Of a stretch of DNA of 64,000 nt, positions 7,801 through 61,223 are shown piece after piece. A program made the translations under genes and the position numbers. The notes under the pieces are model-generated. The model was not told where the DNA came from and ran no database searches. It was given only the letters and a program-made list of their open reading frames with translations. The stretch comes from Octopus sinensis (Eukaryota): assembly GCF_006345805.1 (NCBI RefSeq), contig NW_021824954.1, positions 62,001-126,000 of the forward strand, written 5' to 3'. Every line of letters begins with the position of its first letter. Position 1 is the first letter of the stretch.

Positions 7801-8320
7801 GATTTTAGCTTTGGGCATACATCAGGTGGTAGGCCAGGACGTGTCCTAAAGGTAATTCTGTTTACGCACCAAGCCCTATCAGCAGCTAGATGGTATGCCC
7901 GCGCCTCGGTAGAGTTCGAAAACAACAGCCTAATCAATCTGGGTTTGGATCCTGGTCAGCCAAGGCGGAAAGCACTTTTTGGAGGAACACAGCTTAGGTC
8001 CTTAGATGTGTTGCTAGTAAATGCCTGTAGATCTACCACATCTTCCGATACTCCGATGGCAATTACCTCATGAGTGGTTGATTCAGTAACTTCCTCGATG
8101 CGTTGAGGTTCCATAAGAGCTATGGTTAAATTGCTGAGCAAGGCACTCCGATACGATCCCTCATTGTGAGGTTTTGCACACTAGTTTTGATTCCTGCTAT
8201 TTTGTGGCTTAAAGCAGAAATCCTTTGTCGAATTTCCGCAACTTCTGTACTGATGGCCGATTTTTGTTGATGTTGAGAAGTATCGGGAGACAGACAGTTT
8301 AATTCTGCCATTTGTTTCTC
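4862..8320 (-). mobile_element. Near-full-length CR1-group LINE, frameshifted (ORF1 plus APE-RT ORF2)
   Basis: ORF2 pieces: APE (TRGNNTLDLL, GDSDH), RT (PLFKKGDRTSPVNYRPVSLTS, SGVPQGSVLG, KYADHIKL) and CR1-type C-terminus (HLEFASPVWNPY..LEAVQRRATK). ORF1 pieces at 8311-7630 (coiled coil, AFRLG, RLIRLLF). (TTA)n tail at 4862-4883. Confidence 0.88.
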
Positions 8321-8732: not shown

Positions 8733-9506
8733 AAAAGGCGGTGAGCTGGCAGAATCGTTAGCATGCCGGGTGAAATGCTTAGCAGTATTTTGTCTGCTGC
8801 TACGTTCTGAGTTCAAATTCTGCAGCGGTTGACTTTGCCTTTCATCCTTTCGGGGTCGATTAAATAAATACCAGTTACGCACTGGAGTCGATGTAATCGA
8901 CTTAATACCTTTGTCTGTCCTCGTTTGTCCTCTCTGTGTTTAGCCCCTTGTGGGTAGTAAAAAAATAGGTATTTCGTCTGCCGCTACGTTCTGAGTTCGA
9001 ATTCCGCCAAGGTCGACTTTGCCTTTCATCCTTTCGGGGTTGATAAATTAAGTACGCACTGGGATCAATATAATCGACTTAGTCCGTCTGTCTGTCCTTG
9101 TTTGTCTCTTCTGAGTTTAGCCCCTTGTGGGTAGTGAAGAAATAGGTATTTCGTCTGCCGCTACGTTCTGAGTTCAAATTCTGCCGAGGTTGACTTTGCC
9201 TTTCATCCTTTCGGGGTCGATGAAATGAGTACCAGTTACGCACTGGGGTCAATATAATCGACTTAATCCGTTTGTCTGTCCTTGTTTGTTCTCTCTGTGT
9301 TTAGCCCCTTGTGGGTAGTAAAGAAATAGAAATAGGTATTTCATCTGTCTTTAGGTTCTGAGTTCAAATTCCGCTGAGGTCGACTTTGCCTTTCTTCTTT
9401 TTGGGGTTGATAAATTAAGTACCAGTTGTGTGCTGAGATCATTGTAATCGACTGGCTCCCACCATCAAAATTTCGGGCCTTGTGCCTAGAGTAGAAAAGA
9501 AAAGAA
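8733..9506 (+). mobile_element. Tandem tetramer of tRNA-derived SINE (family A) with 13-bp TSD
   Basis: A-box-like tggcagaatcgttag, B-box gagttcaaattcc and core ctttgcctttcatccttTCggggtcgataaa, with core repeated 4 times at ~180-bp period. tatatgacaacac at 8720-8732 and 9507-9519. Confidence 0.88.
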
Positions 9507-20386: not shown

Positions 20387-20451
<65 letters not shown>

Positions 20452-22415
20452 CTTTATTCACCATAAAGTTGAGAAAAAGAGGGGACAATACGGAGATAGA
20501 CAAAACAAACGTTGGGGTCTGGATATCGAATGAGACGAAACGTATGAATAAACAAACAATTAAAATATATACAATTAAATGAGAATGAGTGATTAACAAA
20601 ATAGAAAGTGGAGGACGCGGTTGACCCCACAAACCACATACTCACACTGAAGACTTTGCTTTCTCCTTTTTTACATTCTCGATTAAACAGGTTCTTTCAC
20701 TCGCAACATACTTGCTATATACTTCCATCTTTTACGAAACACACTTTGCGACAGTCATTTCTTCTCCAGCCTTATTTTCCGTTTCATGTGGAAAACGAAA
20801 AAGTCGATTAGCTCAAGACTGGAGATAAACATGCCTGTTGCAATTCCTTTCACTCTCGTCTTCCATACTACTTCTTTCGCCACAGCAACTACCGAGAGAA
20901 AACAGGCTCGCTCCTCCCTAATCAGGGAGGTCGGCGGAACTATCTTAATTACAGATTTGCTCGACAGTTGTACTCTTCTCGAATGCGACTGCAGGTGTTC
21001 GACATAAGCCCAGAGTTCAGTCACCTTGGGGCATTGCACAATCGCGTGCAGGACAGTTTCACTGTCCCTCTCACATCTTGCACAAACAGGCGAAGGTGCA
21101 CACCCATGTCTAAAGAGCTTATCTCGAACCGGTAAAGCTCTTCTGTAACATTGCCAGGCCAGGGACTTTTGGTAATTATCCATAGGCCCCGGACCGAATG
21201 TTCTTCGGAACAGGCTGGCCAGTTGATTTTCGTCGAAGCCCAGGGTTTCTCCCAGGACGTCGTCACACTTAAACTCTACTAACCCTCTATAGAAGAACGA
21301 GGTTGTACCCCCGCCACCGGCGTTGCCCGACTGGGAGAGAAGCACGAGTGCCTGATGGCACTCTACATACCACACGCCCAACCTCGGTCTACACTTGATC
21401 CATGGGTTCAGTTTGGTAAACGATGTGAACTGTGGAAATAACAGCCTGACGAACGGAGACCACACCTGCTCACCGTCCAGGTAAAGCCAGAGGTGCCTAA
21501 GTCTGAGCGCATGTCTGCGCATTTTTAGCCACGGCAACCCTAACCCACCTTTCCGCGGCTTTTGGCAGCAAATAGAGCGCCTTACAAGCGCCCCTCTGCT
21601 GCCCCTCCACAAAAAGCGAAAGAGCAGAGAGAGAGAGAGTCACACAGAGTGACAGCATACATTCCTTATTTATTTTTTCTTGCATCTTTCTGTCAGAGAA
21701 TGTGCGTGATTGACTGAGAGAGAAAGAAAGAGGTGTGTGTGTGTGTGTGAGAGAGAGAGTGAGAGAAAGGGTGTGTTGCTGTGTGTATGTGACAGAGAGA
21801 GAGAGAGAGGGAGAGTGATAGCATAGATTTTATTTACTTTTTCTCGCGTCTTTTTTTCAGTGAGTGTGATTGACTGAGAGAATGTGTCTTGCTCTGTATG
21901 CGTGAGAGAGAGGGAGAGATTGATAGCGTAATTGTTTTTATTTATTTAGTTTTTCTCGCATCTTTTTTAGTGATGTATGAGTAATTGACTGAGAGAGAGA
22001 GGCATTGTCATATGTGTAACACCTCTCTCAGTCAATCACTCACACACTCGCTAAAGAAAAACAGATGCGAGAGAAACTAAAATAAATTTACGCTATCATT
22101 CTTTCTCTCTCTCTCTCTCACACACACATACACACACACAGCAACCCATCCTTTCTCTCTGACAACACCCCCCTCTCTCTCTCAGTCAATCACTCACACA
22201 CAAAAAAGATGCGAGATAAAATAAATAAATAAAATGTACGCGGTCTCTCTCTCTCACACACACACACAACATATACTTTCTGTCTCGCACTCCCCAGCAA
22301 CACGTCCCTGTCCATTTCGTCTCTCTTTCACTTTATGCTAACTTGAAACAAAATGTATATTTCCACCCACAAAAAAAAACTGAAAAACATTTTTTACGGA
22401 TTTTACCGAACGCTG
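20229..22415. mobile_element. Non-autonomous TIR element (Tc1/mariner-type TA TSD) hosting a LINE insertion
   Basis: ta|cggcgttcggtaaattccg ... cggattttaccgaacgctg|ta. TIRs of ~110 bp (20229-20340 vs 22310-22415). Internal inverted sub-repeats 21640-21995 vs 22020-22260. Confidence 0.8.
20447..21620 (-). mobile_element. 5'-truncated Tx1/L1-clade LINE inserted in a (TC)n microsatellite
   Basis: ORF 20755-21612: KGGLGLP, LAWQCYRRALPV, zinc finger CARC..ETVLHAIVQC. 3' end ttatggtgaataaagaaata runs directly into (TC)n; a short (TC)n also lies at the 5' junction. Confidence 0.85.
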
Positions 22416-26554: not shown

Positions 26555-28305
26555 TGCAATGGACATGTTGGACAACATACAGGGGGCTTCCATGACATAC
26601 ATGGAGGCTATGGTTTTGGTTCCTACAATAAGGAGGGAACCAGGCTGCTGGAGTTCTGCGATGCAAATGATCTTATGGTTCGCAATACTAGTCACCTAGT
26701 CACCTACTGCACTGGCAAACACACTAGCCAAATTGACAACATCCTTGCCAGAAAAAGGGAAAGATGGCTGCTTATAAATGCCAAAACCTTCCCAGGTGAA
26801 GAATGTACCTTCAACATAGACTGGTAGTTAGCACTTCAGGATCAGGGCTAAATGGATGCCCAGAAGATGACCAGCATGGAGGAGATGGGTCTGGAAGCTT
26901 AAAGATCCTGCAAATGGACAAAGATTTAGAGACATATTACTTGAAGTCTTTAATGAAATAGAAGGGGATATAGCTTCATACAATGTAGAAGACAACTGGA
27001 GGTTTCTACAGGACAGCCTGCTGAGGGTCACTGACCAGATCTGTGGATGGTGCGAAGTCCCCTCTCGACCCAAAATAACGTGGTGGTGGAACAATGTTGT
27101 TGACAGGGCTATTACAGAAAAGAAACAGGCTTGGAAGGACTGGAAGAACAGTGGTAGCAAGGAATTGTATCAGACTGCCAGAAGGGAAGCTAGGAGACAG
27201 GTTTATTTAGCCAGAGGGAGAGCAGATAAGAAAAAATTTACCAATGTTCTGTGCCGTGAGGACCAAAGACTTGAGGTGTTTCATGATGTAGGAGAGAAAT
27301 GTGTCCACGTGGATGGTGGTTCACTTGCACTAAACGAGGCTGCAAAGAGAGGTTTGGAGACGCCACTATGAAAGGTTGCACAATAAAGAAAATAAACGGG
27401 AGTAAGAGAGTCTGCTGAATGTCGACTCAAAAGAGGGACCAGCTATCTGAATTGACAGTACCTTGGTAGATAAAGCAATTAAGAGTATGAAGACAGGGAA
27501 AGCTTCCAGCCCATCAGGAATCACTGCAGAGATGCTCAAAATATTTGGCGGTGTTGGCTGTAGCCTAGTCACCCGTATAGTTAACCAGGTGATACACGAA
27601 GGAGTCATACCCAATTACTGGTGTAGCAGCACTATAGTCAACTGCTACAAAGGTAAAGGTGACGCTTTAGATACAAATAATTACAGAAGTATTAAGTCGT
27701 TGGATCAGGTAATGAAGGTCATGGAGAGGGTCATAGCCCAACGAATTAGGGAGAGAGTCAGTTTAGATGAGATGCAGCTTGGGTTCGTGCCAGGGAAAAG
27801 CACCACTGATGCTATATTTCTGGTAAGACAACTGCAGGAGAAATACCTAGCCAAAGATAAACCTCTGTACCTAGCTTTTGTTGACATAGAAAAAGCCTTT
27901 GACAGGGTCCCCCAATCCCTTATCTAGTGGTCAATGAGGAAACTAGGGATAGATGAATGGTTAGTGAGAGCTGTGCAAGCTATGTACAAGGACACTGTCA
28001 GTAAGGTGAGGGTTGGCAACAAGTACAGTGAAGAATTCCGGGTAGAGGTAGGGGCCCACCAAGGTTCAGTCCTCACCCCCACCTATTTATCATAGTCCTC
28101 CTGGCAATAACAGAGGAATTGAAGACAGTATGCCCCTGGGAGCTGGTCTATGCTGATGACCTTGCTCTAATTGCTGAGTCACTATCAGAACTAGAAGAGA
28201 AGTTTCAGGTGTAGAAACAAGGATTAGAATCGAAGGGCCTTGGAGTCAACCTAGCTAAAACCAAAGTCCTAATAAGTAGGAAGGCAGACAAACCACAAAC
28301 GCCTT
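26555..28305 (+). mobile_element. RTE-clade LINE fragment (APE-RT) interrupting the hAT element
   Basis: HGGYGFGSYNKEGTRLLEFC, YKGKGDALDTNNYR, QLGFVPGKSTTDAIF, FVDIEKAFDRVP, HQGSVL, VYADDL. Confidence 0.88.
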
Positions 28306-30394: not shown

Positions 30395-32030
30395 GACAGT
30401 CATTGGAGTGTCACTCTAAATGCTTTCATAGTTGTCACCACTGGTATTTGTTCTCTGTCATGTGTTGTAGGTTTGCTGTGATGTGACCTGTCCAGTCCTT
30501 GATGTTGCCAAACCAAGATTTTCCCTATCTGCCTCTCTTTCACCCTCCCTCAATTGTACTCCGAAAAATGGTTTGGGGCAGTGGGGTTGTGTATGTACAT
30601 GACTGTACTAGGTAAGCTTTCATCTTTTTAGCTGCACAAGGAGTGGTTCTTGTCTGCCAGCTTATTTATTGACTTGCTACTTGGCAAAGCTATTTGCTTT
30701 GTGCTCTATGTATAGGATGTGCCATCTGAAGCACTTGTGCTCAAATGCCTGTGTTCTTTGCTCCATGTCAGCTGTAAGAGTCCAGCTCTCACACACATAC
30801 AGAAGGATCAAAGTCAGCAGGGCCTTGTACACTCTGAGTCTTGCTGGAAAACTAATGGAATTACTTTTCCCTGTGTTGTTCAGCTTCATCATAGCAGCAG
30901 AGGCTAAATTGAGTCTCGTTGTTATCTCCTTTTGAGATCTGCCATCCTTGGTCAGAGTGGATCCTAGCATGATGTTGGTTGCTGTGTTTTGGTTATTACT
31001 ATTAACCAGGATCATTCACTTTGGGTGGGTGGGTGTTTGGGTGTAGTGTGGGAGGGGTGATCTCTATCCCATATACTCCTGATTACATTTTCCAGTCTAG
31101 TGGTGAGCTCCTGTAGTTCTGCTTCACTGCTTTGTAACAGGTCAATATCATCAGCAAAGTGCAGGTCAGAAATGGGCCATCCTCTAATGGAAATGGAGGA
31201 GTGAAAGTCTTCTAGTATCTCCTGCATGATGTTCTCCAGGAAGAGGTTGAAAAGCACTGGAGTGAGGATACATCCTTAACCAACACTCACTATTGTCTTC
31301 AAGATTTCCCAGATGTTGCTCAGGAGAACTGCATTGCTTGAGTTTTTATACAATGCTTGGATTACTTTGATGAGGTTGTTGTCAAAGTTGTAATTCTTAA
31401 TCACCTTCCACAACCCATCGTGCCAAAAACAGTCAAAGGCTTCTTTGAAGTCAGTGAAGTTTTGGTAGAAGTCATACTGGTGTTGAAGATATTTCTCAGT
31501 GAGAAGTCTAATGTTAAAAATCTGCTCCACAGTACTTCTTTGTGGTTTAAATCCTGTCTGTTCTTCTGCAAGGATTTCTTCTCTCCTTCCCTTTAAGTCT
31601 GTTTAGCAGAATTCTTAACAATACTTTGCTGCAGTAGCTAATTAGGCTGCTTTTTTTTTATATTTCTGGTAGAATCTTAAGTTACCTTTCTTGGGAATGG
31701 GTATCATCAGTAATTGGGTCCACTCCTTTGGCCATTGCTTCATCTCCCATATCTTCTGACAGGTAACTGTTAGTGCCTTGATAAGCATTGGCCATCCATG
31801 TTTTAACATAAAGAAATTAAGAATATGAAGACAGCATTCCATTGTCCCAGTCGATTGGTCATATGCATTTGGGCCTACTTTGACATTCCAGTCTCCTAGG
31901 ATAATGTGGGCATCTTTTTAGGAGTCACCTTGGTGATTTTCTCCAGGTCCTCATAGACTTCCTATATGACATCATCATCATATTCAAGCATTGGTGCATA
32001 GACTTGTAGGATGATAATATTCTGTGGTCT
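30395..32030 (-). mobile_element. Degenerate RTE-clade LINE
   Basis: WPKEWTQLLMIPIPKKGNL, EQIFNIRLLTEKY, DFKEAFD, LHFADDIDL, LLYVCESWTL; APE remnants near 31850-32030. Confidence 0.85.
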
Positions 32031-32772: not shown

Positions 32773-35700
32773 GCGGATTGTGACACAGATCATTCACTAA
32801 TAAGAAGTAGGGTGAGGATTCTGCCTAAAAAAGTTCATCACTCCAAGAAAATGGGCTGACCACGCATTAACACTGCCAGCACCTCAGACCCTACACTGCG
32901 ACAATGTTTTGCTGTTTCTATTAAGGTTGCCCTCAGTAGCTGCCCAACCTCCTCTGCTGAAAGTAGGTGGAATTATATCAGGGAAGCTTGGTATACCACA
33001 TCAATAGATACTTTCGGCATGAGAGAAAGGCAAAACCCAGATTGGTTCAGTGCTGGGCTCTCAGAACTGGAAACAGTTATCGAAGTGAAGCATGCAGCTC
33101 TGATGCAACACAAGAGTGATTCTTCTACAAAGTCACTCGAAGAACTCAGAAAGGCTAGAAATAAAACCCAACTGACTGCCAGACGCTGTGCAAATAGGTA
33201 TTGGCAGGAAATCTGTCAGAGTATCCAGTCAGCTGCTGACAGTGGCGACACCCGTGGGATGTATGCCAGTTTGAAGAAGACCCTTGGTCCATCCGCAACC
33301 AAGTCAGCCCCATCTCAAATCAACTACTGGAGATCTAATCAAGGACCAAAGCAAGCAAATGGATGGAGTACTACCAGGATCTTTACTCACAGGAGACCAC
33401 AGTAGCTGAGGCTGCAATCGAGGGTGTCAAGATCTTGCCAGTCATGTGCGAACTTGACAGGCTGCCATCTATAGCAGAGCTCACCAAGGCTATTGACTCC
33501 CTAGCAAGTAACAAGGCTCCGGGAAAAGACGGCATCCCCTTAGAGATCATCAAAACCGGCAAAAACACCATCCTGCTTCGGCACCTTCATGAGCTTCTGT
33601 GTCAGCACTGGGAAGAGGATACAGTCCCTCAGGATATACGGGATACTAACATCATTACGCTTTACAAAAACAAAGGTGACCGTGGTGATTGTAACAATTA
33701 CCGTGGAATATCTCTTCTAAGCACTGTTGGAAAGGCCTTTGCTCGCATTATCCTGTCCAGGTTACAACTGCTTGCTTCTTGAATTTATCCAGAATCGCAG
33801 TGTGGCTTTAGAAGAAGCAGATCAACTATTGACATGATATTCTCCATACGCCAACTTCAGGAGAAGTCCAGAAAGCAGAAAATGCCATTATATATGGCCT
33901 TCATTGATCTGACAAAGGCCTTTGACTTGGTAAGTAGAAAAGGCCTCTTCATCCTGCTCCAAAAAATCAGATGTCACCAAAGCTGCTGAGGATCATCAAA
34001 TTTTCCCATGATGGTATGCAAAGCACCATACAGCACAATGGTTCAACATCAGTTGCCTTCCAAATGAAAAGTGGGTTAAAGCAAGGTTGTGTCCTTGCTC
34101 CTACATTATTTGGCATCTTGTTCTCGCTGCTGTTGTCACATGCCTTTGAGACATCAGATGATGGAGTGTTTCTGCACAGTAGAAGTGATGGGAAACTGTT
34201 CAATCTCTCGTGTCTGCATGCCAAGACCAAAATCAGAAGCGTCCTGATCAAGGAGATACTATTTTCTGATAATGCCACTCTGGTATCACACAGAAGAAGC
34301 CCTACAAAGGCTCATCAACTGTTTTGAGCAAGCATGTAGTGACTTTGGCTTAGTTATCAGCCCCAAGAAGACCAACATCATGGGTCAGGCTACATCGGAC
34401 ATCCCAAACATACATATTGGAGACCACAGACTACAGGAGGTGGAGAAGTTTACCTACGAGGGATGTTCAATAAGTAATGCCTCTGACCCACTTGCAGTTG
34501 TTTGATCTAGCTGAAATTTTGCATGTGCAATTATTTATATCTCTATAGAGTAAGTGGCAAATTACAGCTCTGAATTAATTGTGGTTTTTGATTTACAGGT
34601 GTTTGAACCGAGTCAAGTGTGAAATGGAGCCTGTTGAGTGTCGAGCAGTGATCCAGTTTTTGTATTTGAAAGGACGCACACCACGGGAGACTTTTGATGA
34701 AATGAAAGTAACTTATGGTGATGATTCCCCATCATATGACCTTGTAAAACGCTGGCATCATGAATTCAAACATGGTCGGAACTCTGTGGAAACAGCTCCC
34801 AGATCTGGTCGCTCCCATTGATGAGGCATCTGTCCGTCAAGTTGAGGCTGCCATTTTGGAAGATCAACGCATAATTATTCGCCAAATAGCCCATGAGGTC
34901 AAGATTAGTACCGGGTCTGTGGAAACTATCATTCATGACTATTTGCATATGCAAAAGGTGTCTGCCAGATGGATTCCCAGGTTGCTCACGCCTTTCCAGA
35001 AGCAAGAACGCGTCGAGTGCTCGAGGGTGAATTTGGATATGTGCCAAGAAGATGAGTCAACATTTTTCAAAAGACTGATTACACAGGATGAAACCTGAGT
35101 CCATTACGATGATCCAGAGACCAAAGCCCAGTCAATGCAGTGGAAGCATCGTGACTCACCCCCTCCAAAGAAGGCAAGGGTGCAGCCCTCCGCTGGCATG
35201 GTCATGCTCACAGTCTTCTGGGACCAGGACGGAGTAGTGATGACAGATTTCCTGACAAAGGGTACCACAATTGCAGGAGCCTATTATACTTCACTTTTGA
35301 GGAAATTAAGAGAAGTTATCAAAATCAAGAGGCAGGACAAGATCAGCAAATGCATCCTCCTCCTGCAGGACAACTCTCCGGTCCACAACTCGTGTGTCGC
35401 CAGATCAGAAGCACAGGCGTATGGCTATGAACTCCTCCCCATCCCCCCTACTTTCCTGACCTTGCACCCTCTGATTTTCACCTCTTCCCAATCATGAAGT
35501 TGTTTTTGAAAGGAAAGCGTTTCCCAGATGATGCAGCCTTGATTTCTGAAGTCACGTTGAGGTTGGAGGACCAAGCTGGGTTCTTCTACAAAAATGGTCT
35601 CCAGAGCCGCATCAAACGATGGGAGAAATGCGTAACTCTGGGTGGTTTCTATGTAGAAAAAGACTAATAACTGTGCCAAGTTTTGTTGCTCTACTGCTAT

Positions 35701-36482
35701 GGGAAGTGGGTCAGGGGCATTACTTATTGAACGCCCCTCGTATCTTGGCTCTACCGTCACCTACAACCTATCCCTTGATGCTGAGCTCAATATATGCATT
35801 GGCAAGGCAGCTGCTGTGATGGCCCAACTCTCCAAACGGGCATGGGACAACAATAAGCTGACCAAGACCACAAAAATGAAGATTTACCAGGCATGTGTAC
35901 TTAGCACTCTACTGTATGGAAGTGAGACTTGGACACTGTACACACGCCAAGAGCGTCGCCTAAATATCTTTCACATGCGCTGCCTCCAGAAGATCCTTCG
36001 CATCAAATAGCAGAATCATGTCCCCAACAAAGATTTCCTCAAGCAAGCAGGAATACTAAGCATGTTTGCACTCCTCACACAAAGACGTATGCGATGGCTT
36101 GGATATGTTAGCTGTATGGAAGATGGCAGAATCCCCAAGGACATACTCAACGGAGAGCTTGCTAGGGGCACTAGGTCTGTGGGAAGACCGGTCTTATGAT
36201 ACAAGGATGTTTGCAAAAGGGACATGAATGCCTGCAACATCAATATTACCAACTGGGAAGCAGTTGCCAGCAACCGTGGAGATTGGCAACGTACTGTAAA
36301 AGAGGAAACACAAAGGAGTGACATAGAGAGGGAGAGGAGAAATGGAAAGACAAGAAAAGACGTCAACAAGAAACTATGACATTACAACCAGCCAGGCAAA
36401 GTCTTCACTACATTTGTAGCACCTGCCAGAGGGAGTGTTTGTCCAGGATAGGACTACACAGCCACAGTAGGAGATGTATTAG
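32773..36482 (+). mobile_element. RTE/BovB-like LINE split by a mariner
   Basis: DCDTDHSL, KAPGKDGIP, YKNKGDRGDCNNYRGISLLS, GLKQGCVLAPTLF, LFSDNA, EVEKFTY|LGSTV across the mariner, LLYGSETWT, C-terminal zinc finger CSTCQRECLSRIGLHSH. Confidence 0.9.
34457..35740 (+). mobile_element. Full-length mariner (irritans/Hsmar2-like), transposase frameshifted
   Basis: TIRs cgagggatgttcaataagtaatgcc / ggcattacttattgaacgcccctcg with TA on both sides. MEPVECRAVIQFLYLKG, WIPRLLT, TQDET, LLQDNSPVH and a frameshifted PP.FPDLAPSDF (D,D34D). Confidence 0.93.
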
Positions 36483-38527: not shown

Positions 38528-39801
38528 GTTGGCAACTAAGTTCCTGCCAATTTTTTAACTTTTGGAATTTATTGTGTTTTTAAATGTTGGAATCTATTTT
38601 ATTTGAGAATTCTATTTTTGAAACATTTTGGAATCTATTTTGTTTTTTTTCTAGTTAATTTTAGTTAATTTTTTGTTTATTTTCAGATCATTACAATGGA
38701 ATGTTAAATTTAGAAAAACGATCATTTTCGACATCTCCTTCTTTTCACTTTTAATCAAGGTTCTTAGGTAGCAAAAGCTGCTCGCAACGTTTGTGCTGTG
38801 TATGGAGAGGGTGCCATAACTGAAAGAACCACTCGTGATTGGTATGCCAATTTCAAAAATGGAAATTTTGACCTCAAAGACGCACCTCATTCTGGCCGCC
38901 CAGTTGAGTTCGATGAAGAGCGATTAAACCGACTTTTTCAAACAAGTAGGGAACTGGTAGAGAAAATGGAATGCTCCCACACTGCTATAGAGAAGCATCT
39001 TCACTCGATAGGAAAGGTTCAGAAGTATGGAGCATGGGTTCTGCATGCTTTAAGTGACAACAACAAAAATCAACGAGTCACGATCTCTACTGGTTTGCTT
39101 GCTCGTCACCACTCAACTCCTGGACACAAGCAATGATTTCTTTACAGAATCGTTACTGGTGACGAAAAATGGTTCCTGTATATCAATATGAAGCAGTGTA
39201 GGGAAGGGCTTAGCCTCGGTAAACAAGCAACAACGCGCGTGAAACAAGATCTTCATCCGCATAAAATGATGTTGTGCATATGGTGGGACTGGGAAAGGAT
39301 TATCCATTATGAATTGCTTGGACAGAACCAAACAGTCAACATGGAACTCTATGGTCAACAGATGGAATGACTCGACACAGCTGTTCAAGAGAGAAGACCT
39401 AATCGGTAGCATGGAGTTCTGCTGCACGACAACACCTGCCCTCATATCACCAATATGACCAAGGAAGACATTCAAATACATGGCTGCGAAATGCTGCCAC
39501 ACCCGCTGTACTCTCCTGATTTGGCACCAATGGATTTCCTCTTCTTTCGATTACTTTCAAATGCTATGCGTAGAGTTTCATTCAATACTGATGCAGAATT
39601 GAGAGCTTGGTTGGATCAATTTTTCAAGTCGAGATCGGGCGATTTCTAGCAATGAGGTATTGAAAATTTTGTTGAACATTGGGAAGAAGTTGTAAGCAAC
39701 AGGGGGGGAATACATTATTGAATAATTAGTTGTTATTTTTTATTAAACCTTTTAAAAAATATAAATTTAAAAACACAGCGGGAACTTAGTTGCCAACCCA
39801 A
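38524..39801 (+). mobile_element. Full-length mariner (mellifera/Hsmar1-like) inserted in (TA)n
   Basis: TIRs ttgggttggcaactaagttcc / ggaacttagttgccaacccaa. GAWVLHAL, VTGDEKW, LLHDNTCPH, HPLYSPDLAPMDF, with stops and frameshifts. Confidence 0.93.
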
Positions 39802-43859: not shown

Positions 43860-45590
43860 TGGATATCTCACTGATTCATTAGGAAACAGAATTACCAAAA
43901 TTACACACTGCTCCTTTGTGGATGACTTAAAACTTTATGCAAAGAATATGCATGAGATGAAAAAGAGCCTTGGCCTAGTTACAACATCCTCAAAGGATGT
44001 AGGGTTAGAGTTTGGTCAGGATGTTCTATCAATGATTTGACTGTTTCCCCTGTATCTGATGAGCAATGTTACAGGTATCTATGGGTGGATGAAAATATAT
44101 CTTACAGTGGCACCTGCAACAAAATACATGTCACTAAAGAATATTATAGCCAAATAAAGAAAATTTGGATCTCAGAACTCTCTGCATTCAATAAAACAGT
44201 GGCCCACAATGTGTTTGCAGTGCCAGTACTCATACCAACATTTGGGCTGCTTCATTGGACGCTTGATGAGATCCAAGCCATTCATGTGAAAATCCACAAA
44301 ATATTAACAAGCCCACATAATTTCTGCATAAACAGTGACATAGACTGCCTCTACCTAAAACATAAACACGGCAGCAGAGGCCTAACATCAATCCAAAATA
44401 CCTTTGAATGTTGCATCATATCCCTTTGGCAACATCTTTTAACCACCAAGCATTGAAGTGAATCCCTTGAGCAAGTTTGTATACATGAGGCTGATAACAT
44501 CATAAGACTTGGAAGGCAGCTCCTTGAGCAACACTCTTTGTCTGATAACCTAGAATACTTGCTCAAAGAAATCACACTACTGCAACGTATCATCAGAGGA
44601 AAGGATGAGCCTATATGAACAGAAGACTATGCATGCTCCGTGGTGATAGTAACATTGATCATCAAAGTAGTTTATCATAGATGAATAGCCGGATTACTAT
44701 CTCCCACTTTGAAGGGTATGCGTTTGCAATCCAGGAACAGGAAATATCAACCAAGTACTTGATGCACAAAAGGGATAGAGATGCAAAAAAAGCAGTAAAA
44801 TGTGACAACCGAGGCAGACTTTGTGGAGTTCACACTGAAGACATCACCCACATCATAAGCAGTTGTCCGAAAATGTCATCATGGTATTATCTACCGATGA
44901 GACATAATGTTGTAGCTAGGACACTCTATAATGAAATCAGTCGGAAGGATAATCCCAAGGACAAAGAAATAAAGACCCACAATATGGTAGAAGCCATAGC
45001 TACTCATAATGAAATGGAATACTGGTGGATTGTACCAGTGAAGACCTCAATAAAATGTAAGCACTACAGACCTGATATAATGATTTGGGATAGAGAAGAG
45101 AAACTGTGCACAGTTGTGGAAATTAGCTGCCCAGTGCATGTTAATATAAAGTGAAAAAGAGAACACCTATCCTGAACTATTGAGAAACCTGTAGTCACTC
45201 TATCCAGATTATGAGTTCAGGCTTATGCCTGTAAATATCGGGGTCTTGGGATAGGTGACACACTACCTAAATACCAATCTTGAGAAATTAGGCTTCTCAA
45301 AACCTGAAGGGAGAAAGGTAATTCGAAGACTATAGATCCAATCCATCACTGGAACTCTAAATATCTTTAAAGCTTTCCAGAAGTTTATCATTTAAATATA
45401 TATGAGCATGTCTAGATATGTAACTATATGCATGAGAATACATACATAATACATACAAATTTGCACATACATACATACAAAAATACCCTGTTGTTGATGT
45501 TGAAATTCCAATGAAGGAACTTTGGATCTTGGTTAGAAACTGGTCCTTTCTCTATTGGCAAGAAATCTTGAAATAAACTGAATAATGACA
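43860..45590 (+). mobile_element. R4/Dong-like (RLE-type) LINE, 5'-truncated
   Basis: FVDDLKLYAK, LSAFNKTVAHNVFAVPVL, AIQEQEIST, zinc knuckle RLCGVHTEDITHIISSC, RHNVVAR, RPDIMIWD..VVEISCP (PD-(D/E)xK endonuclease). Confidence 0.85.
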
Positions 45591-53789: not shown

Positions 53790-56751
53790 ATAAGGACCTG
53801 CAGCCTCCAAGCATGCAACCCCAAATATGTTTTTCTTTTTAGAAGCTGAAAACATCCCTCCAACTTCCTTCTTAGCTCTACAAGCCCAGAGCTGCCACAA
53901 TCAATGTTAGTACAATGGAAGGTAGATCTGGAGAGATAGTTGAGATGCTTGAGTAGAGACATGTAGATGTACCCTGTGTCCAATAGGTATGATAGAGGGG
54001 AACCTCAGCTAGACTGCTTACAACAAAGAGAATAGACAGAATTTTTTTCTGGATAGGCAACCATGATGGTTTAGGTGGTGTGGGTATTCTACTAGCAAAG
54101 AAATGGGTAGATAAGGTGATCAAGGTAGTCAGGGTATGTGATAGAATTCTTAATCTAAGAATAGCCTTGTTTGATGTAACTGTGTCAGTTGCCGCTGCAT
54201 GCCTGATTTGCAGGTACTTGAAAAAAATCGCTATGAATTCCTTCTGAGGACTGCTTTGATGACAAAAGACGACTACATTCTCATCACGATGGGATTTCAA
54301 TGGACATGTTGGAAAACACTGATGGATTTCAGGGTGTGCATAGAGGCTATGACTTTGGTTCCAGAAATGACGAGGGGGGAAAGGCTGCTGGAGTTTTATG
54401 TTGCTAATGGTCTGCAACACCAACTTCAGAAAACGTGTCAACCATCTGATCATGAAGCAATCTGGGGAAGCATACCAGCCAGATTGATTATATATATCCT
54501 CACCAACACAGGGCAGATATATGCTCATAAAAGCAAAATCTTTCCCAGGTGAAGTATGTATAACCCAACATAAGCTAGTGATTAGTGACTTCAGGCTTAG
54601 GGCCAGAAAGATCCAGAGATACAAGCTAATTGTCAAAATTCAAGGATCTTTCAAGTGGGCAGAGATTTAAAGATGTCCTTAATGAGGCCTTTAATGAGAA
54701 GGAGGAAATGATAGAGACATATGATATAAAGGGCAACTGGAAGTTCCTATGAGACAATCTACCAAGGGCAACAAACCAAATTTGTGGCTGGAGCAAAACC
54801 TCTGTTAGACCAAGGTCGAGGTGGTGGTGGAACAGTGATGTTGACAGGGCCATAAAAGAGAAGAGACAGATCTGGACTAGATGATGAAAATTATAGAGCG
54901 ACATATATATTTCTTTATTGCCCACAAGGGGCTAAACATAGAAGGGACAAACAAGGACAGACAAAGTGATTAAGTCGATTATATCGACTTCAGTGCGAAA
55001 CTGGTACTTTATTTATCGACCCTGAAAGGATGAAAGGCAAAGTCGATCTCGGCAGAATTTGAACTCAGAAGGTAACGACAGATGAAATACCGCTAAGCAT
55101 TTCGCCCGGCATGCTAACGTGTCTGCTAGCTTGCCACCTTTTATAGAGAGACTTATAGCCCAATTAATTAGGAGCAGAGTTAGGCTAGATGAAATGCAGT
55201 TCAATTTCATCTAGGGAAGAAGCAGTATTGATACTATTTTCATAATAACGCAATGGCAAGAAAAGTAATTACTTAAGAATAAACCATTATACTTGGCAGT
55301 TGTTGATCTCAAGAGAATGCTTTTAATAGAGTACCCTGCTTTGTGATATGGTGGGCTCTGAAGAAGCTAGGGATCGAAGAATGGCTTGTGAAAGCTGTAC
55401 AGGTCATGAGACCGTCAGTAAGGTGAGAGTTAACCATGAGTACAGCGGAGAATTTGGTGTACAAGTGGGTGTTCATCAAGGCTCAGTTCTCAATCCCCTG
55501 CTTTTCTTCATTATCCTCCAGGCCATAACAGGGTAGCCACTTGGAACTACTATATGCTTATGATCTTCCTCTCATAGCAGATTCCATATCAGAGCTAGAA
55601 GAGAAATTCCTGGTGTGGAAGCAAAACCTAGAATCTAAGGGCTTTAAAGTTACATTAGTAAATGTTAAGGTATTTTTAAGCAAGAAAATGCACAAGATCC
55701 TACTCTCTTCAGGTAGGTCGCCTTGTTCAATTTGTAGGAAAAATGTAGGCGGGAACTCCACTTGGTGTACACAGTGTAAGCTATGGTCACACAAGAGGTG
55801 CAGTGGATTAATAGGAAGATTATCAGAGAAAGTAGTGTTTGTATGTGGAAGGTGCACAAGATCCATAAAAACTACAGACTTGGGAAATTGATTCCCTCAA
55901 ATGGCCAGGTGGCTCATTAGAGGTAGCAGATAATTTCTGCCACCTAGTAGACCAAATTAGTAGTGGGGAGGATATACAGAGTATGTAATAGCTAAAATAA
56001 GAATAGGATGGAAGAAATTCAGAGAGTTGTTACCACAGTTGGCTATGAAAGGAAGATTGTATGATGCATGTGTATGGATAGCAATTCTACATGGTAGTGA
56101 ACATGGGCCATGAATGCAGAGGACATGTGAAGGCTGGAGAGGAATGGGGCTAGTATGTTCTGCTGGATTTGTAATGTATGTATACATGTTTGACAGAGTG
56201 CTAGTGTATTGAGACAGAAGTTAAGCATAAGAGGAATTAGATGTAGTGTGCAAGAGAGCAGACTGTGCTGGTTGGGTCATATGACGCAGATGGGTGCCAA
56301 CAGCTCTAGAGAAGTGCCAATCTCTCAAAATAGATGGAACACATGGAAGTGGGTGACCCAGGAAGACATGGGACAAAGTACTGAAGGATGACCTCAGGGT
56401 GCTGAACCTTTCAAACAAGACTACAGAGGATCGAGATACTTGGCACCTTGCTGTACTCAATAAGACCTGTACCCAACAGCAAAAGTGTTAAGGTCACTCT
56501 CCTTGATGAAGAGGATTGGCCTGCAAAAGTCCTTGGATAGGCAATGTAAAAAGCACTTGTGCCTGTGCCATGTAAAAGAACCCAGCTCACTCTGTATATT
56601 GGTTGACATTAGGAAGGGCATCCAGCCATAGAAACCATGCCAAATCAGACTGGAGCCTGGTATAGCTCCCCAGCTTGTGAGCTTGGGTTCAACCGTCCAG
56701 CATGGACAAACATGCCAGCAGTCAACAGATGTCAAATGATGATGCTGACGA

Positions 56752-56818: not shown

Positions 56819-57391
56819 ACATATAATTAATTTTTAGTGTAATATATGGATTCACAGAATCATGTGGCTATCACAGAAAGCTCCTCTAGCAGACTCTGTT
56901 AACAGTCCACATAGTAACTGAATGCAATGACGTATAATGCAGAGTTCTATGCAGCTGAAATCCAGAAGATCCAATTGATGAAAATATTTCATGAAGCGTA
57001 TACGAACCATAAAACGTTTGAGATATGAGAGGTGAATATATTTATTTAATCACTTGTTATCTTTAGTATTATGGCTGCTTCACAGCCTTCAACATATAAT
57101 TTCATTGCATAGTAAATGATTTTACATGTCTGTACTAATATGCATGCTATGTATTGTACAGTTCAATTGTACATTTACAAATCAATGCAGGTAAAGAAGG
57201 GTAGTGCATCAGATCACCAGAATATCTTGGTTACAACAACACTGGTCTGATGATAACAAGTAGTTAAAATAGATAGTCCCAACATTTTATGGTTCACATA
57301 CACGCACACACACACACACATGCATGCACGCACGCACACAAACACACACACACACATTATAGATGCATATAATTGTATATGTAAATGTATA

Positions 57392-57945
57392 TCTGTATAT
57401 ATAAAACTGAGAATGTGTGTCTGTCTGTCTGTGTGTTTCCCTAAAACTTGAGAACTACACAACCAATTTCATTCAAATTTTACACATGCCTTACTTAGGG
57501 TACATGTAGTGTCACGGGCAAAAAAGTGTTCAACTTCTTGCCTAGGGCGAGCCCATAGCAATATCATATCTTCTCCACTATTTCAGTCTTATGTGTTAAA
57601 AGTGAAACAAAAACATCTCTCTATTTTATGTCAGATACTTTCACTTTAACAATAAAAATTAGAGATAATAATAATGATTGAATTATATGTAGTAAGTAAT
57701 AATTAAAATCGAACTAAAGCATATAATAATTAAATCGTAACATAACAATTAAAAGTAAAAATAGCAATTGGTATAAAATTGCATCAATGACTTGAACTTG
57801 AATAAGTGGTTTCACATGAATGGGAATAAATTAAAAATAAAATTAAAGTGCAGAAATGGAATAGTCCAGATGGAGCTGTGCACATACCCTTTACCAGAGC
57901 TTTTACGTTAGATTATCTGCTAATTAGCTAGCATTAAGTATCTAT
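57392..57945 (+). mobile_element. Non-autonomous Helitron, 5' part, interrupted
   Basis: Colinear with 40334-41210. Confidence 0.8.
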
Positions 57946-57949
57946 ATGA

Positions 57950-59613
57950 AGTTTGGCTGTAGTCGTTTTTTGGAACCTGTGTGTTTTGCCTGTTTTGTTA
58001 AACGGTATTGTTGAATTTTGTCTGTCTGTATTGAGACAGACAAGGAAAAAACGGTTTGCCCCTCCCTAAGGGAGAAAATGGCAAAGAAAAATGTTTTTAC
58101 AAGCCTCAGTGAGTCGGACCTGTCGATCTCTGAGGAGGAACTGGAAAAGGCAGTGAGGAAATTGGACAGAGCACTTGGAGAAAAAACAACATACGCGCAA
58201 GCGACAAAGTCAATGGAAAAAGAGATAGACCTGGCTAAGTTGCCAGGTTATCAAGAATTTGTTATGAAGGTCGGTGGTGAAGTTGAATTGTCACCGCCAA
58301 GGAAAAGAAGAGACTGGTATGAGAAGAGGACCATTACGCATAGAGTATTTGCCAACGAAAAAAGGAGAATAGAGTTGGTCGGCATGGAAATGGTAGAGGA
58401 AGCTCTGAGAATGACAGAAGAGGAGGTAGCGTTTCTCGCAAGAGGCGTTGGGTTCGGCACCGTGGTTGTACAATTTAAAACCGAAAAAGTGGCAAGGCGA
58501 ATGGCGGCGAAAACAATAAAGTCGGAGAAGATATTCCTTCTTCCCTCGTATCTGGGAAGGAGGACGACCTGGATCAGGGTGGAGGGAATACCACCAGACA
58601 TAGACGGAGAGTGGATTGTGGAAGCCATCATCAGTGCTAATGAAGATAAGGTGGACATTCTTCATGCCATGGTGAAGGACGAGGGAGGTTGGAGAGGAGC
58701 AGTACTGGAGATGAATGTCTTGTCGGAATCGGAGGTGTTGGAACAACTGGCCGAGAATATAACAATGGGAAACATCATTATGAGAGTATGGGTGGAGGGC
58801 AGAGCTCCTCGTTGTTACAAATGCGGCTTGAAGGGCCACATAAAAGCTAACTGTCCTCCCCCAACAAAAAAAACAAAGAAAAGAACCAGCAAGAGAGGTA
58901 GAGGAGCCCCAGGAGGAGCAGAATACAATGGAAGAGAAGCAAGTGGACGAGGAGGAATTACCAGCAGAATGGGAATCTATGGGAAGAAGGAGGAAGAGAA
59001 GGAGAAAAAAGGCAAACTGTTCTGAACCCCAACCCACCCCATCACCACCTGCACCCTTTGTGGCCCAGGTGTCTGCAGGGGAAGCCCTGCAGACACTGAA
59101 TCCACCCGTTCCCCACCAACAAGAAAACAAAAAAAAAAAAAGATAACACAGACACACAGGATAACTTTAAAAATTCTCGTCCCCATATATTAGGTGTAAT
59201 AAATAAGGAAGAAATACGTGAAATATTGAGGGACTGGGGAAAGGTGGAATTGCAAGACAGCTGGGATATGGCGGGGTTGATGTATGTAGTAATATCAGAG
59301 GACCAAGAAAAAGAACTCAAGGAAAAACTTTAAAAAAGTTATAAATTGATTACGAAAACAATTGAACCGGATAAGTGATATGAAGTGGAAGAAATATATG
59401 GGATGAAACTGAAGGACTACATGTTTTTTATACCGATATAGGGAAGAAGGACAGGTAAGTGATGTTATCGGATGGGGCCGTTAACATCGCTCTCATTTCT
59501 CATTTTCACAATTTTTCATCTTTCATACGTTTCTGTATTTTTGTGATGTTTTGTGTCCCCAATGTTTGTAATGTCCCCCTCTATGTAAGCCCTTTATGGG
59601 TAATAAAATATAA
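57950..59613 (+). mobile_element. ORF1(gag)-only non-LTR retroelement (HAL1-like) with Tx1-type 3' UTR
   Basis: Short 5' UTR, ORF1 with CCHC knuckle, no APE or RT, and a 3' UTR ending gtccccctctatgtaagccctttatgggtaataaaata that is homologous to the Tx1-like tail at 20447-20600. Confidence 0.7.
58078..59025 (+). CDS. L1/Tx1-type ORF1 nucleic-acid chaperone (RRM-like region plus CCHC zinc knuckle)
   Basis: Open from the ATG at 58078. TYAQA motif, VVVQFKT..IRVEGIPPDI (RRM-like), RCYKCGLKGHIKANCP. Probable frameshift in the A-run near 58865, with the acidic/basic tail continuing in 58928-59146. Confidence 0.7.
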   Translation: MAKKNVFTSLSESDLSISEEELEKAVRKLDRALGEKTTYAQATKSMEKEIDLAKLPGYQEFVMKVGGEVELSPPRKRRDWYEKRTITHRVFANEKRRIELVGMEMVEEALRMTEEEVAFLARGVGFGTVVVQFKTEKVARRMAAKTIKSEKIFLLPSYLGRRTTWIRVEGIPPDIDGEWIVEAIISANEDKVDILHAMVKDEGGWRGAVLEMNVLSESEVLEQLAENITMGNIIMRVWVEGRAPRCYKCGLKGHIKANCPPPTKKTKKRTSKRGRGAPGGAEYNGREASGRGGITSRMGIYGKKEEEKEKKGKLF

Positions 59614-59616
59614 GTA

Positions 59617-60470
59617 ATGTCTGTTTTCTCGAACATACGCTTCTACTGAGTACAGCTTTTGGTTTATTTCTTATCCATAAAGGACTATAGCTTCTACTGC
59701 GTACTGCTTTTTGATTCACCGTAAGGTTTGTTGTTATTATTATTACTGTTTAACTATTGTTATCACGTTTGTTGGTTCCTCGTAAGGGAAGCATTTGTTA
59801 AATAATTGTAAACCGTAACCCTTCCCCTTTGGGAGAAGGAGCTTTGGTTATTGTTTAAAAATTGAGTTGTGTCCCTGTTTGGGGAAATTGACAATATTTT
59901 CACCGTTTATACGGAAGCATTTTTGTTAAAATGTCTCGATAGAAGAAAGTCCAAAAATGAATTTCACTACAGCCGTCAGCAGGCGCTAACTCATTAAAAT
60001 TAAAGTGGAAGAAATACAAACCTATTTCGGAATGATCACCGACAAAGACGGTGAATCTAGGATAACATCACCAAACGAAATAAAAAATAAGATTAAAGAA
60101 AAGACTATTGTCTATAAAGTATACAATGTAGAGAAAAAAAAAAGATTTGAACACCTGGAGGAAAGCACCATCGAAAAGTGTCTTGGTGAGACTATGAAAG
60201 ACATCTAACCAGAGGCGGTAAATTCGCCACAATAGAAGCAAGGTTCGGGTCAACGGAGCGTGCAAGGGAATACTCGACTCGAACCTTGCAAAGTGGAATT
60301 ATTTTAATTTTACCTTTAAATCTGGGACGTAGAACGTCCCAGATAAAAATTAAAAATGTCCCCTCAGAAGTAGAGGTAGGCTGGATTGTAGCCACACTTC
60401 TATACAAGAGGGAGGACAAGATACAATTGATTGAAATTGCAAGAGATGGGCCTACAATTCCAGTCTGTTA
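59617..60470 (+). pseudogene. Second, divergent ORF1 paralog (5' UTR plus truncated, frameshifted ORF1)
   Basis: EKTIVYKVYNVEKKKR..RGGKFATIEARF..LILPLNLGRRTSQIKIKNVPSEVEVGWIVATLL aligns with KRTITHRVFANEKRR..RGVGFGTVVVQF..FLLPSYLGRRTTWIRVEGIPPDIDGEWIVEAII. Confidence 0.7.
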
Positions 60471-60643
60471 TATATTTTGAGTATTGTTATCACTAGCGAT
60501 ATCAAGATATAACTTTGTATTTTGTACTTTATGTGTAGATGTATATATATAGATGTACATGTAATATTTACACATATATATACACATATATACATGCATA
60601 ATATATCCACCCATACACACATACGCACACACACACATAAATA

Positions 60644-60775
60644 GGGGCAGGTGTGGCTGTGTGGTAACAAACTATGTTCCAAACACATGGTCCTGGGTTC
60701 AGTCTTACTGTGTGGTGACTTGGCATGTGTCTTCTACTATAGCCTCAGACCAACCAAAGCCTTCTCAGTGGATTT
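60644..60775 (+). mobile_element. SINE family B, 5' half
   Basis: ggggcaggtgtggctgtgtggtaac..gggttcagtc..gacttggcatgtgtcttctactatagcctc. Confidence 0.75.
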
Positions 60776-61223
60776 TATACATATATACTGGCATAAATAC
60801 ATATATATACATGCATACGTACATATTCGGTATAAACACTCTACCACTACTACTAATAACTGTTGGGAACACTTTCAAACCTGCCTTACATTCGAACTGG
60901 AATCTCAAAAACATTGTCCCCTTACATTTCATTCTCATTTCATTCCCAACACAGGGAAATAAAACTTACTTCTCACTACGGGACGATGGAAGATGGTAAC
61001 AGATACTTACCACATGCTACCTTATCAAGTGAAGTATATTGTCATCCACTTCACCTCTAACCTTCATAGCGTACGGACAATTCAAATGACCCCACACCAC
61101 TATACCACCACTGATGCCTTCATCCTTCTAGCTGTGTGAATATGACAGAATTCATTTCCAGCCAAATAATATTCGCAACACGATTCATAATCACTCCGTC
61201 CTTTCCTATTACTATTTCTCTCG

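What the first reader, a model, noticed from the sequence alone, without database searches (positions are those of the whole stretch)
57950..59613. ORF1-only half-LINE sharing its 3' tail with a Tx1 LINE and a tRNA-SINE: a three-tier system
Seen: 5' UTR, ~1-kb gag-like ORF1 with CCHC knuckle, no endonuclease or RT, then a 3' UTR with ctcatttctcattt, ttcatacgtttc, ccccaatgtttgt and gtccccctctatgtaagccctttatgggtaataaaata. The same motifs occur in the same order in the Tx1-like 3' UTR (minus 20447-20600: ctcattctcattt, ttcatacgtttc, ccccaacgtttgt, gtcccctctttttctcaactttatggtgaataaagaaata). SINE A ends tttgtcccttctatgtttagccccttgtgggcaataaagaaata (54905-54965; also 8915-9328). Established: SINEs borrow LINE 3' tails for recognition, HAL1 and HeT-A are ORF1-only elements, and mammalian L1 needs only poly-A. 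Inference: a stringent Tx1-clade RT mobilises both a protein-coding half-LINE that supplies its own RNA chaperone and a SINE. I do not know of this trio being described.
Basis: partly seen in the sequence, partly recalled or inferred. Interest (0 to 1): 0.8.

Follow-up and report, generated by a model that had tools for sequence, protein, structure and literature searches.

The report
Octopus half-LINE lineage borrowing Tx1 enzymes
This is a broken copy from an old, many-branched family of jumping genes that keep only their RNA-packaging gene and likely borrow the copying enzyme of related full-length elements, whose tail sequence they share with a very common short repeat.

Summary
Real, but not quite as first read. 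The 1.65-kb element (57962-59613) belongs to a multi-copy ORF1-only (half-LINE) lineage of Tx1 type. None of 47 sampled ORF1 copies and none of 30 copies found by the 3' motif had ORF2 in place. Its ORF1s form one clade apart from 20 autonomous Tx1 ORF1s, under strong purifying selection (dN/dS 0.05-0.26 between subfamilies), with target-site duplications, 5' truncations and a young intact subfamily. Corrections: the coding region runs about 1.38 kb and is broken in this copy, so the 3' UTR is only about 155 nt. This copy spread as a passenger in a non-autonomous Helitron. The Tx1 in the window targets (TC)n repeats and is probably not the partner: other Tx1 families match the last 36 nt better for 62 of 62 half-LINE and 28 of 28 SINE tails. 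Trans-mobilisation is inferred, not assayed. New variant of the HAL1/HeT-A kind.

The parts
57385..57961 (+). 5' part of a high-copy non-autonomous Helitron-like element that carries the half-LINE
   Evidence: Same 5' end in 12 of 12 empty-site loci; a terminal hairpin plus CTAG is visible in 9 of the 12 printed 3' regions; shared at 91-93% by 7 other filled places
57962..59613 (+). ORF1-only half-LINE (lineage called HAL-I here), full length, coding region broken
   Evidence: Empty-site joint 57961/59614 in contigs of 4 of 4 runs and in 12 of 12 genomic loci; family search
57962..58077 (+). T/G-rich 5' UTR
   Evidence: Sequence; homologous 5' ends in other copies
58078..59458 (+). ORF1 coding region: predicted two RRM-like domains, one CCHC knuckle (58810-58857), charged linker, C-terminal domain; frame breaks near 58866, 59066-59085 and 59130, two stops in the last frame
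   Evidence: model pLDDT 87.6; top PDB matches are tandem-RRM proteins, best E 9e-5, TM about 0.3
59457..59492 (+). Predicted 15-bp hairpin with ATGGGG loop opening the 3' UTR, overlapped by a conserved CAG/GTAAGT word
   Evidence: 96.5% of 255 cells paired, 2 pairs with change on both sides; left arm fixed by the search pattern
59557..59561 (+). CCCCA word complementary to the hairpin loop (possible pseudoknot)
   Evidence: 5 bp here (38 of 500 shuffles as long); 7-9 bp in 7 of 7 autonomous Tx1 families
59563..59613 (+). Terminal tail shared with Tx1 families and the SINE: small GCCC/GGGT hairpin, AATAAA, no poly(A)
59614..60600 (+). 3' part of the Helitron, holding a relic Tx1-type 5' end and ORF1 fragment (60205-60432); the stretch equal to 60118-60170 is a recurrent insertion spot in other copies
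20447..21626 (-). 5'-truncated copy of an autonomous (TC)n-targeting Tx1-type LINE (Tx1A); related tail, probably not the partner
54905..55138 (-). SINE A, single copy
   Evidence: head word has 55,299 exact matches in G000
8737..9455 (+). SINE A, one head followed by tandem 3' parts

Best explanation
The element is a broken, Helitron-carried copy of an old ORF1-only retrotransposon lineage of Tx1 type, which is likely copied in trans by the endonuclease and reverse transcriptase of co-resident Tx1 families that do not target (TC)n and that likely also move SINE A. Shown: many copies have ORF1 followed about 150 nt later by the tail and no ORF2; the ORF1s form their own clade, under purifying selection; copies end at a fixed non-poly(A) 3' end, many have 11-25 bp target-site duplications and variable 5' truncation; the last 36-45 nt match autonomous Tx1 families and the SINE; half-LINEs and Tx1s sit head to tail behind the same duplicated target. 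Inferred mechanism: the RNA is translated to an RRM-RRM-CCHC protein that would coat its own RNA; a Tx1 ORF2 protein made from another RNA would recognise the 3' end (terminal small hairpin, perhaps also the G-loop hairpin and its CCCCA partner), nick a preferred site and prime reverse transcription there. Because an insertion leaves the upstream nick site intact, later copies would land in front of earlier ones and build arrays; some array units were also duplicated at DNA level. The window copy itself was spread by the Helitron and is likely inactive.
For: No ORF2: 0 of 47 ORF1 hits in 40 regions I picked across the 150 listed (40 with hairpin and tail, 7 unresolved); 0 of the first 30 of 151 motif hits have same-strand ORF2 upstream, 21 have ORF1. 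Clade: SH-aLRT 100 for 29 rows apart from 12 autonomous rows and for 22 rows apart from 20 (HAL-I thinned to 20 of 40). Selection: window vs 15 other-subfamily copies with estimable dS gives dN/dS 0.05-0.26, all bootstrap upper limits 0.42 or less; 8 more are saturated. Recent activity: 5 places at 100% amino-acid identity over 239 aa with open frames of 444-505 aa. Duplications of 11 bp or more at 24 of 35 half-LINE ends tested, against 12 of 188 mismatched controls. Tails: best match among other Tx1 families median 0.84 (half-LINE) and 0.88 (SINE) vs 0.70 and 0.68 for Tx1A; window tail vs L177 z 18. Shared sites: target-half-LINE-target-Tx1-target at L093, L188, L195; half-LINE L221 and Tx1 L196 end at the same base of one repeat; 37 exact tail-to-SINE-head junctions, control 0, of several tail types, with the SINE head and a duplication upstream in L240, L260, L274, L290 and one ORF2-bearing Tx1 3' end at that base (L287).
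Against: No activity assay and no expression evidence. Sampling was partial (150 of 13,322 candidate hits scored, 47 inspected), so a rare autonomous element with this ORF1 is not excluded. No single partner is identified; only one ORF2-bearing copy was seen at the SINE-head site and it lacks a clean upstream duplication. 10 of 35 ends had no duplication, the window copy among further such cases. Some counts are inflated by DNA-level copying (Helitron passengers, repeated array units such as L211, L289). Within the Helitron-carried group dN/dS is 0.67 (58 synonymous, 107 non-synonymous), a little under neutral expectation and unexplained. The loop-CCCCA pairing is weak in ORF1-only elements (4-6 bp) and its permutation tests (7 of 10,000 Watson-Crick only; p 0.04 with G-U) ignore relatedness. 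One locus (L166) joins a half-LINE ORF1 and cut 3' UTR to a Tx1 RT fragment.
Confidence: 0.82

Rival explanations
1. The (TC)n-targeting Tx1 family seen in the window (Tx1A) is the mobilising partner.
For: Its 3' UTR is homologous to the half-LINE's (z 5.7-6.4), it shares the quoted 12-mer and the G-loop hairpin, it is abundant (5,287 candidates) and one copy has an open 1,138-aa ORF2.
Against: 6 of 6 full-length copies lie in (TC)n at both ends and 6 of 9 truncated tails are followed by a TC run, but 0 of 62 half-LINE and 0 of 28 SINE tails are; 62 of 62 and 28 of 28 tails match other Tx1 families better (pools of 26 vs 9). Target choice follows the endonuclease (PMC4494074, passage).
Confidence: 0.06
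2. The copies are repeated or recent internal deletions of an autonomous LINE with the same ORF1 that I did not sample, and the selection signal comes from that parent.
For: Only 47 plus 30 loci were inspected; L166 has RT sequence after a half-LINE ORF1.
Against: All resolved copies across 58-100% identity share one 3' UTR module at the same distance from ORF1; the module is never preceded by ORF2; the 20 autonomous ORF1s fall outside the clade. Each subfamily would need its own hidden parent and the same deletion.
Confidence: 0.07
3. The family spreads mainly as DNA, inside Helitrons and by tandem duplication, and reverse transcription is incidental or long past.
For: True for the window copy and 7 other places, probably for the L021 group and the group at the Helitron hot spot, and for repeated units in L211 and L289.
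Against: Unique flanks with 11-25 bp duplications, 5' truncations with a fixed 3' end, mixed-subfamily arrays, and identical young copies on different contigs.
Confidence: 0.04

Closest known systems
HAL1 (half-L1) of mammals
   Same: Non-autonomous, encodes only ORF1p, L1-group origin, arose several times (PMC5753468 passage); lives beside autonomous L1 and SINEs, so a LINE/half-LINE/SINE trio is not new in itself.
   Different: Here the parent is Tx1-type, the 3' end is a specific non-poly(A) tail shared with a SINE, and copies show site preference and arrays. The primary HAL1 paper (Bao and Jurka 2010) was not held, so its details are unchecked.
HeT-A and other ORF1-only telomeric Jockey elements of Drosophila
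   Same: ORF1-only families in head-to-tail arrays with autonomous relatives; about 40% of telomeric families are ORF1-only (PMC13534243 passages).
   Different: Jockey clade and chromosome ends there; here interstitial arrays on many contigs, often separated by a duplicated target, with no sign of a host function.
Ag-Sponge (CR1-derived, mosquito)
   Same: Listed with HeT-A and HAL1 as ORF1-present non-autonomous LINEs (PMC5786205 passage).
   Different: CR1 clade; that passage names Jockey, L1 and CR1 sources and the paper has no mention of Tx1.
Crocodilian Tx1-Mar with SINEU
   Same: Tx1 and a SINE share preferred sites inside an abundant DNA transposon; tandem insertions sandwich a target duplication and are read as sequential (PMC4494074 passages and section 16).
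   Different: SINEU has snRNA heads and poly(A) tails, and the paper never mentions ORF1 (0 occurrences), so no coding half-LINE tier.
Kibi (Tx1 clade, (TC)n-specific)
   Same: The window's Tx1A family sits in (TC)n; Kibi's target is from PMC4494074.
   Different: Kibi is described from teleosts; kinship of Tx1A to Kibi was not tested by phylogeny.

Membership tests
ORF1-present non-autonomous LINE (HAL1/HeT-A/Ag-Sponge kind) | Encodes a LINE ORF1 protein | tested here: met
   About 37% identity to ORF1 of full-length Tx1A, 28-45% to other Tx1 families; RRM-like folds and CCHC
ORF1-present non-autonomous LINE (HAL1/HeT-A/Ag-Sponge kind) | No ORF2 in family members | tested here: met
   0 of 47 and 0 of 30; sample, not census
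ORF1-present non-autonomous LINE (HAL1/HeT-A/Ag-Sponge kind) | Amplified as a family by retrotransposition (duplications, 5' truncation, fixed 3' end) | tested here: met
   24 of 35 ends with duplications of 11 bp or more vs 12 of 188 controls; the window copy itself has none
ORF1-present non-autonomous LINE (HAL1/HeT-A/Ag-Sponge kind) | ORF1 kept under purifying selection | tested here: met
   dN/dS 0.05-0.26 between subfamilies
ORF1-present non-autonomous LINE (HAL1/HeT-A/Ag-Sponge kind) | Mobilised in trans by a partner ORF2 | not testable with these tools
   Inferred from shared tails and shared insertion sites
Mammalian HAL1 proper | Derived from mammalian L1, poly(A) 3' end (recalled) | tested here: not met
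   No poly(A) after AATAAA in the catalogued tails; relatives are Tx1-type LINEs of this genome
HeT-A proper | Jockey clade, confined to chromosome ends | tested here: not met
   Arrays lie deep inside long contigs, e.g. G000:C3 at 58 Mb of 174 Mb
Tx1 clade (autonomous partners) | ORF1 plus ORF2 with AP endonuclease, RT and C-terminal zinc domain | tested here: met
   Pfam Exo_endo_phos, RVT_1, zf-RVT in L055; ORF2 homology over residues 3-1135 in L189, L192
Tx1 clade (autonomous partners) | Placement in Tx1 by RT phylogeny against reference elements | not tested
   No reference set on hand; the label rests on architecture, target preference and recalled motif likeness
Tx1 clade (autonomous partners) | Target-sequence preference | tested here: met
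   Tx1A in (TC)n 6 of 6; recurrent sites for other families
Non-autonomous Helitron (carrier) | 5' TC-type start, subterminal hairpin and CTAG 3' end, no terminal inverted repeats (features recalled) | tested here: met
   Empty copies; the window copy lacks the 3' end
tRNA-derived SINE (SINE A) | tRNA-derived head with Pol III boxes | tested here: inconclusive
   ARAGORN 0, Rfam 0; box-like words by eye only
tRNA-derived SINE (SINE A) | 3' tail shared with a LINE | tested here: met
   z 7.7-14.6 against Tx1B, C and D tails, 0 of 1000 shuffles

The most novel reading that the evidence does not exclude
This genome holds a layered retrotransposon community: at least three ORF1-only lineages have lived without their own reverse transcriptase long enough to saturate synonymous sites, survive by renewing their last 45 nt to fit whichever Tx1 enzyme is active, and are steered by those enzymes into the head of the SINE that competes for the same enzyme and into the front of earlier Tx1 copies, building HeT-A-like arrays away from telomeres. 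All tiers but the SINE would be recognised through one 3' fold, a G-loop hairpin pairing with a downstream CCCCA.
Probability: 0.35. Interest if true: 0.7.

Novelty: new variant of a known kind. Interest (0 to 1): 0.5.

Why it matters
ORF1-only LINEs are on record from Jockey, L1 and CR1 sources; a deep, recently active Tx1-type example with a sequence-specific tail makes two open questions testable with natural sequences: what a self-made ORF1p buys an RNA that must take ORF2p from another element whose ORF1 is only about 35% alike, and which RNA feature a Tx1 enzyme reads at the 3' end. It also points to the likely mobiliser of a SINE with over 55,000 exact head matches here. It is transposon biology with no shown effect on the host, and repeat libraries may already hold these families unnamed.

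Tried and rejected
Expression: no RNA holder listed; contigs of two runs only guessed to be RNA cover parts of the element and were not used as evidence on expression. Protein database search with a relative's ORF1 gave 1 hit, an uncharacterised protein named by its source as Octopus sinensis, 57% identity; this is the only basis, with the repeat types, for 'octopus'. ESM Atlas gave CCHC and ZCCHC3-like clusters at 0.89-0.92, leads only. Rfam found nothing over the element, so no known ribozyme. My first guess of a 6-bp duplication around the window copy fell with the empty site. Whole-tail folding was not better than shuffles for the half-LINE (z -1.6 and -0.7) and mixed for the SINE (z 0.5 and -2.6). 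A splice role for the CAG/GTAAGT word got no support: the joints ending at 59447-59449 have unknown sequence between. The pattern for the Helitron hot spot gave only 2 exact hits, so that spot rests on the loci, several of which may descend from one insertion. Earlier scan notes for this genome: none. Literature searches that found no description of this system; Repbase and Dfam could not be searched, no supplements were read, and Bao and Jurka 2010 was not held.

Full report
Observation. The window holds a T-rich leader, an ATG at 58078 and a 315-aa open frame with one CCHC knuckle and no endonuclease or RT match. The quoted tail motifs are present in order in this element and in the minus-strand LINE fragment at 20447-21626, which carries a zf-RVT match. 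SINE tails are at the stated places.

Boundaries and state of this copy. Contigs of 4 of 4 public runs join 57961 to 59614 with one base between. A pattern across the 3' junction gave 232 exact hits; of the 100 listed, 98 read as the empty form, 1 as filled, 1 as ambiguous, and 12 of 12 fetched empty loci align on both sides. The element is therefore 57962-59613, inserted without a visible duplication in a high-copy element whose empty copies share a 5' end and mostly show a terminal hairpin and CTAG, as non-autonomous Helitrons do (features recalled). Seven other places share both or one of these flanks at 91-93%, so these are passengers of one insertion. The insertion point is the 5' end of a relic Tx1-type element already in the Helitron, whose ORF1 fragment lies at 60205-60432. 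The 315-aa frame leaves homology after about residue 263; the rest of the protein lies in other frames up to a stop at 59458. Intact relatives are 437-471 aa. Among the passengers dN/dS is 0.67 against 1.22 and 1.05 in the shifted frames: close to neutral, slightly low, unexplained.

The family. A DNA search gave 56 matches from 40 scored of 891 candidates, many full length at 69-93%. A 30-nt motif opening the 3' UTR has 151 exact hits, control 0. Of the first 30, 21 have this ORF1 upstream, 9 are truncated, none has same-strand ORF2 upstream; L170 sits antisense in a Tx1 ORF2 and L166 has an RT fragment after a cut UTR. A protein search scored 150 of 13,322 candidates at 58-100% identity, including five places identical over 239 aa with open frames of 444-505 aa. 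I fetched 40 regions spread over that list: of 47 ORF1 hits, 40 have hairpin and tail about 700 nt after the core, 7 are unresolved, 0 have ORF2, and 19 of the 40 are followed by another Tx1-lineage element. Duplications of 11 bp or more flank 24 of 35 ends tested, 1 has 9 bp and 10 have none; mismatched controls reach 11 bp in 12 of 188 (a few positives are weak or repeat the same site). ORF1 cores form one clade, SH-aLRT 100, apart from autonomous ORF1s (quick trees, midpoint root, so no order of events). Between subfamilies dN/dS is 0.05-0.26 and dS often above 2; 156 of 406 pairs are saturated. The core is modelled with pLDDT 87.6 and its best solved matches are tandem-RRM proteins, so 'gag-like' means RRM-RRM-CCHC.

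The partner. The window's LINE is a truncated member of a 5.6-kb family (Tx1A) with ORF1 about 37% identical to the half-LINE's and an APE-RT-zinc ORF2. All 6 full-length copies lie in (TC)n at both ends, the target published for Kibi (PMC4494074, passages). No half-LINE (0 of 62) or SINE (0 of 28) tail is followed by a TC run. Searches with tail patterns and one ORF2 end revealed several more autonomous families. Their last 36 nt match better than Tx1A for every half-LINE and SINE tail; the window tail scores z 18 against L177. The Tx1A similarity is real but more distant (z 1.5-6.4 by copy and scoring).

Shared sites and arrays. At L093, L188 and L195 one target sequence precedes a half-LINE, lies between it and a full Tx1, and follows the Tx1 (upstream copy seen in L093 only). 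Half-LINE L221 and Tx1 L196, on different contigs, end at the same base of one repeat. Arrays of 3 to about 10 units mix subfamilies, other ORF1-only lineages and full Tx1s, all in one orientation (L203, L208-L212, L206-L207). A pattern joining a tail to one base in the SINE head gave 37 hits, control 0, 35 with half-LINE-type and 2 with Tx1-type words; L240, L260, L274 and L290 show the SINE head and a duplication upstream; L287 is an ORF2 end joined at that base without a clean upstream duplication; L288 is an ORF1-only element with a Tx1-type tail. In the sample 7 of 40 tails, at 5 loci, run into that word, while the exact head occurs 55,299 times in 2.7 Gb, about 1 in 100,000 oriented positions. 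Tandem insertions around a duplicated target are described for SINEU and read as sequential (PMC4494074). Some units here are plain DNA duplicates (L211, L289) and some junctions lack a duplication (L209, L212), which could be template jumps.

3' fold. The half-LINE UTR opens with a 15-bp hairpin, 96.5% of cells paired, 2 pairs changed on both sides, with the left arm fixed by my pattern. Seven Tx1 families and the other ORF1-only lineages have different stems with a G-run in or beside the loop. The loop complements a downstream word, 7-9 bp in the Tx1s and 4-6 bp in ORF1-only elements; own pairs beat swapped pairs in all but 7 of 10,000 permutations, relatedness uncontrolled. This is a prediction. 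The SINE lacks the CCCCA partner and shares only the last 40 or so bases.

Mechanism. Inferred: own ORF1p coats the RNA; a borrowed Tx1 ORF2p reads the 3' end, nicks a preferred site and primes there; the intact upstream nick site invites later insertions in front. Established background: SINEs use the tail of a partner LINE under stringent recognition (PMC3747384, passages).

Comparison and novelty. ORF1-present non-autonomous LINEs are known from Jockey (HeT-A), L1 (HAL1) and CR1 (Ag-Sponge) (PMC5786205, passages; PMC5753468, passages; PMC13534243, passages). Octopus repeat papers list L1-Tx1 and SINE counts without this system (PMC13282606, PMC8967140, PMC4758252, PMC12988792; passages). 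Nine searches found no description, but repeat libraries, supplements and the primary HAL1 paper were out of reach. Verdict: a real new variant of a known kind; interest 0.5.

Noticed in passing
L203:3502-5529, L210:2096-6081, L097:4100-7350, L205 (minus) 5803-7817, L095 (minus) second element, L214 (minus) 5520-6722: Further ORF1-only elements with ORF1 about 30-36% identical to HAL-I and their own 3' hairpins; one intact 486-aa frame in L210. At least two fall outside the HAL-I clade, so ORF1-only forms may have arisen more than once.
   Followed up: partly
window 59452-59460: A perfect 5' splice-site-like word (CAG/GTAAGT) overlaps the hairpin start and is kept in subfamilies where it is not in the coding frame; could bind U1 snRNP. 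It was part of my search pattern, so its conservation is partly built in.
   Followed up: partly
window 59614-60440: The high-copy Helitron has captured a Tx1-type 5' end and ORF1 fragment, and that captured piece now serves as an insertion spot for half-LINEs and Tx1s.
   Followed up: partly
window 60590-61115: The window's Helitron lacks the normal 3' end; L003, L005 and L010 share the same downstream sequence, as in end-bypass capture.
   Followed up: no
window 8737-9455: SINE A forms tandem runs of 3' parts that restart at the same internal word; the same junction recurs at many other loci.
   Followed up: no
L243, L265, L266: Half-LINE tails run into what look like heads of other tRNA-like SINEs, just after the A-box-like word (by eye).
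   Followed up: no
L095 (G000:C10 near 3.51 Mb): A half-LINE of another subfamily is inserted, with a 22-bp duplication, in the 5' UTR of a window-type copy, followed by a third ORF1 element.
   Followed up: partly
G000:C2:169361000-169398000 (L206, L188, L207, L278, L279): A chain of over 30 kb made of Tx1 families and ORF1-only elements head to tail.
   Followed up: partly
window 59066-59085: A short inverted duplication specific to this copy; a contig of run X15 covers 59064-59220 with no mismatches, so it is probably not an assembly error.
   Followed up: partly
window 5444-7955, 26871-27927, 30677-31602, 32860-36010, 34748-35497, 38768-39550, 43956-45154: Other decayed mobile elements by translated motifs (CR1/RTE-like RT pieces, mariner-like transposases, an R4/Dong-like end); names recalled, not tested.
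   Followed up: no
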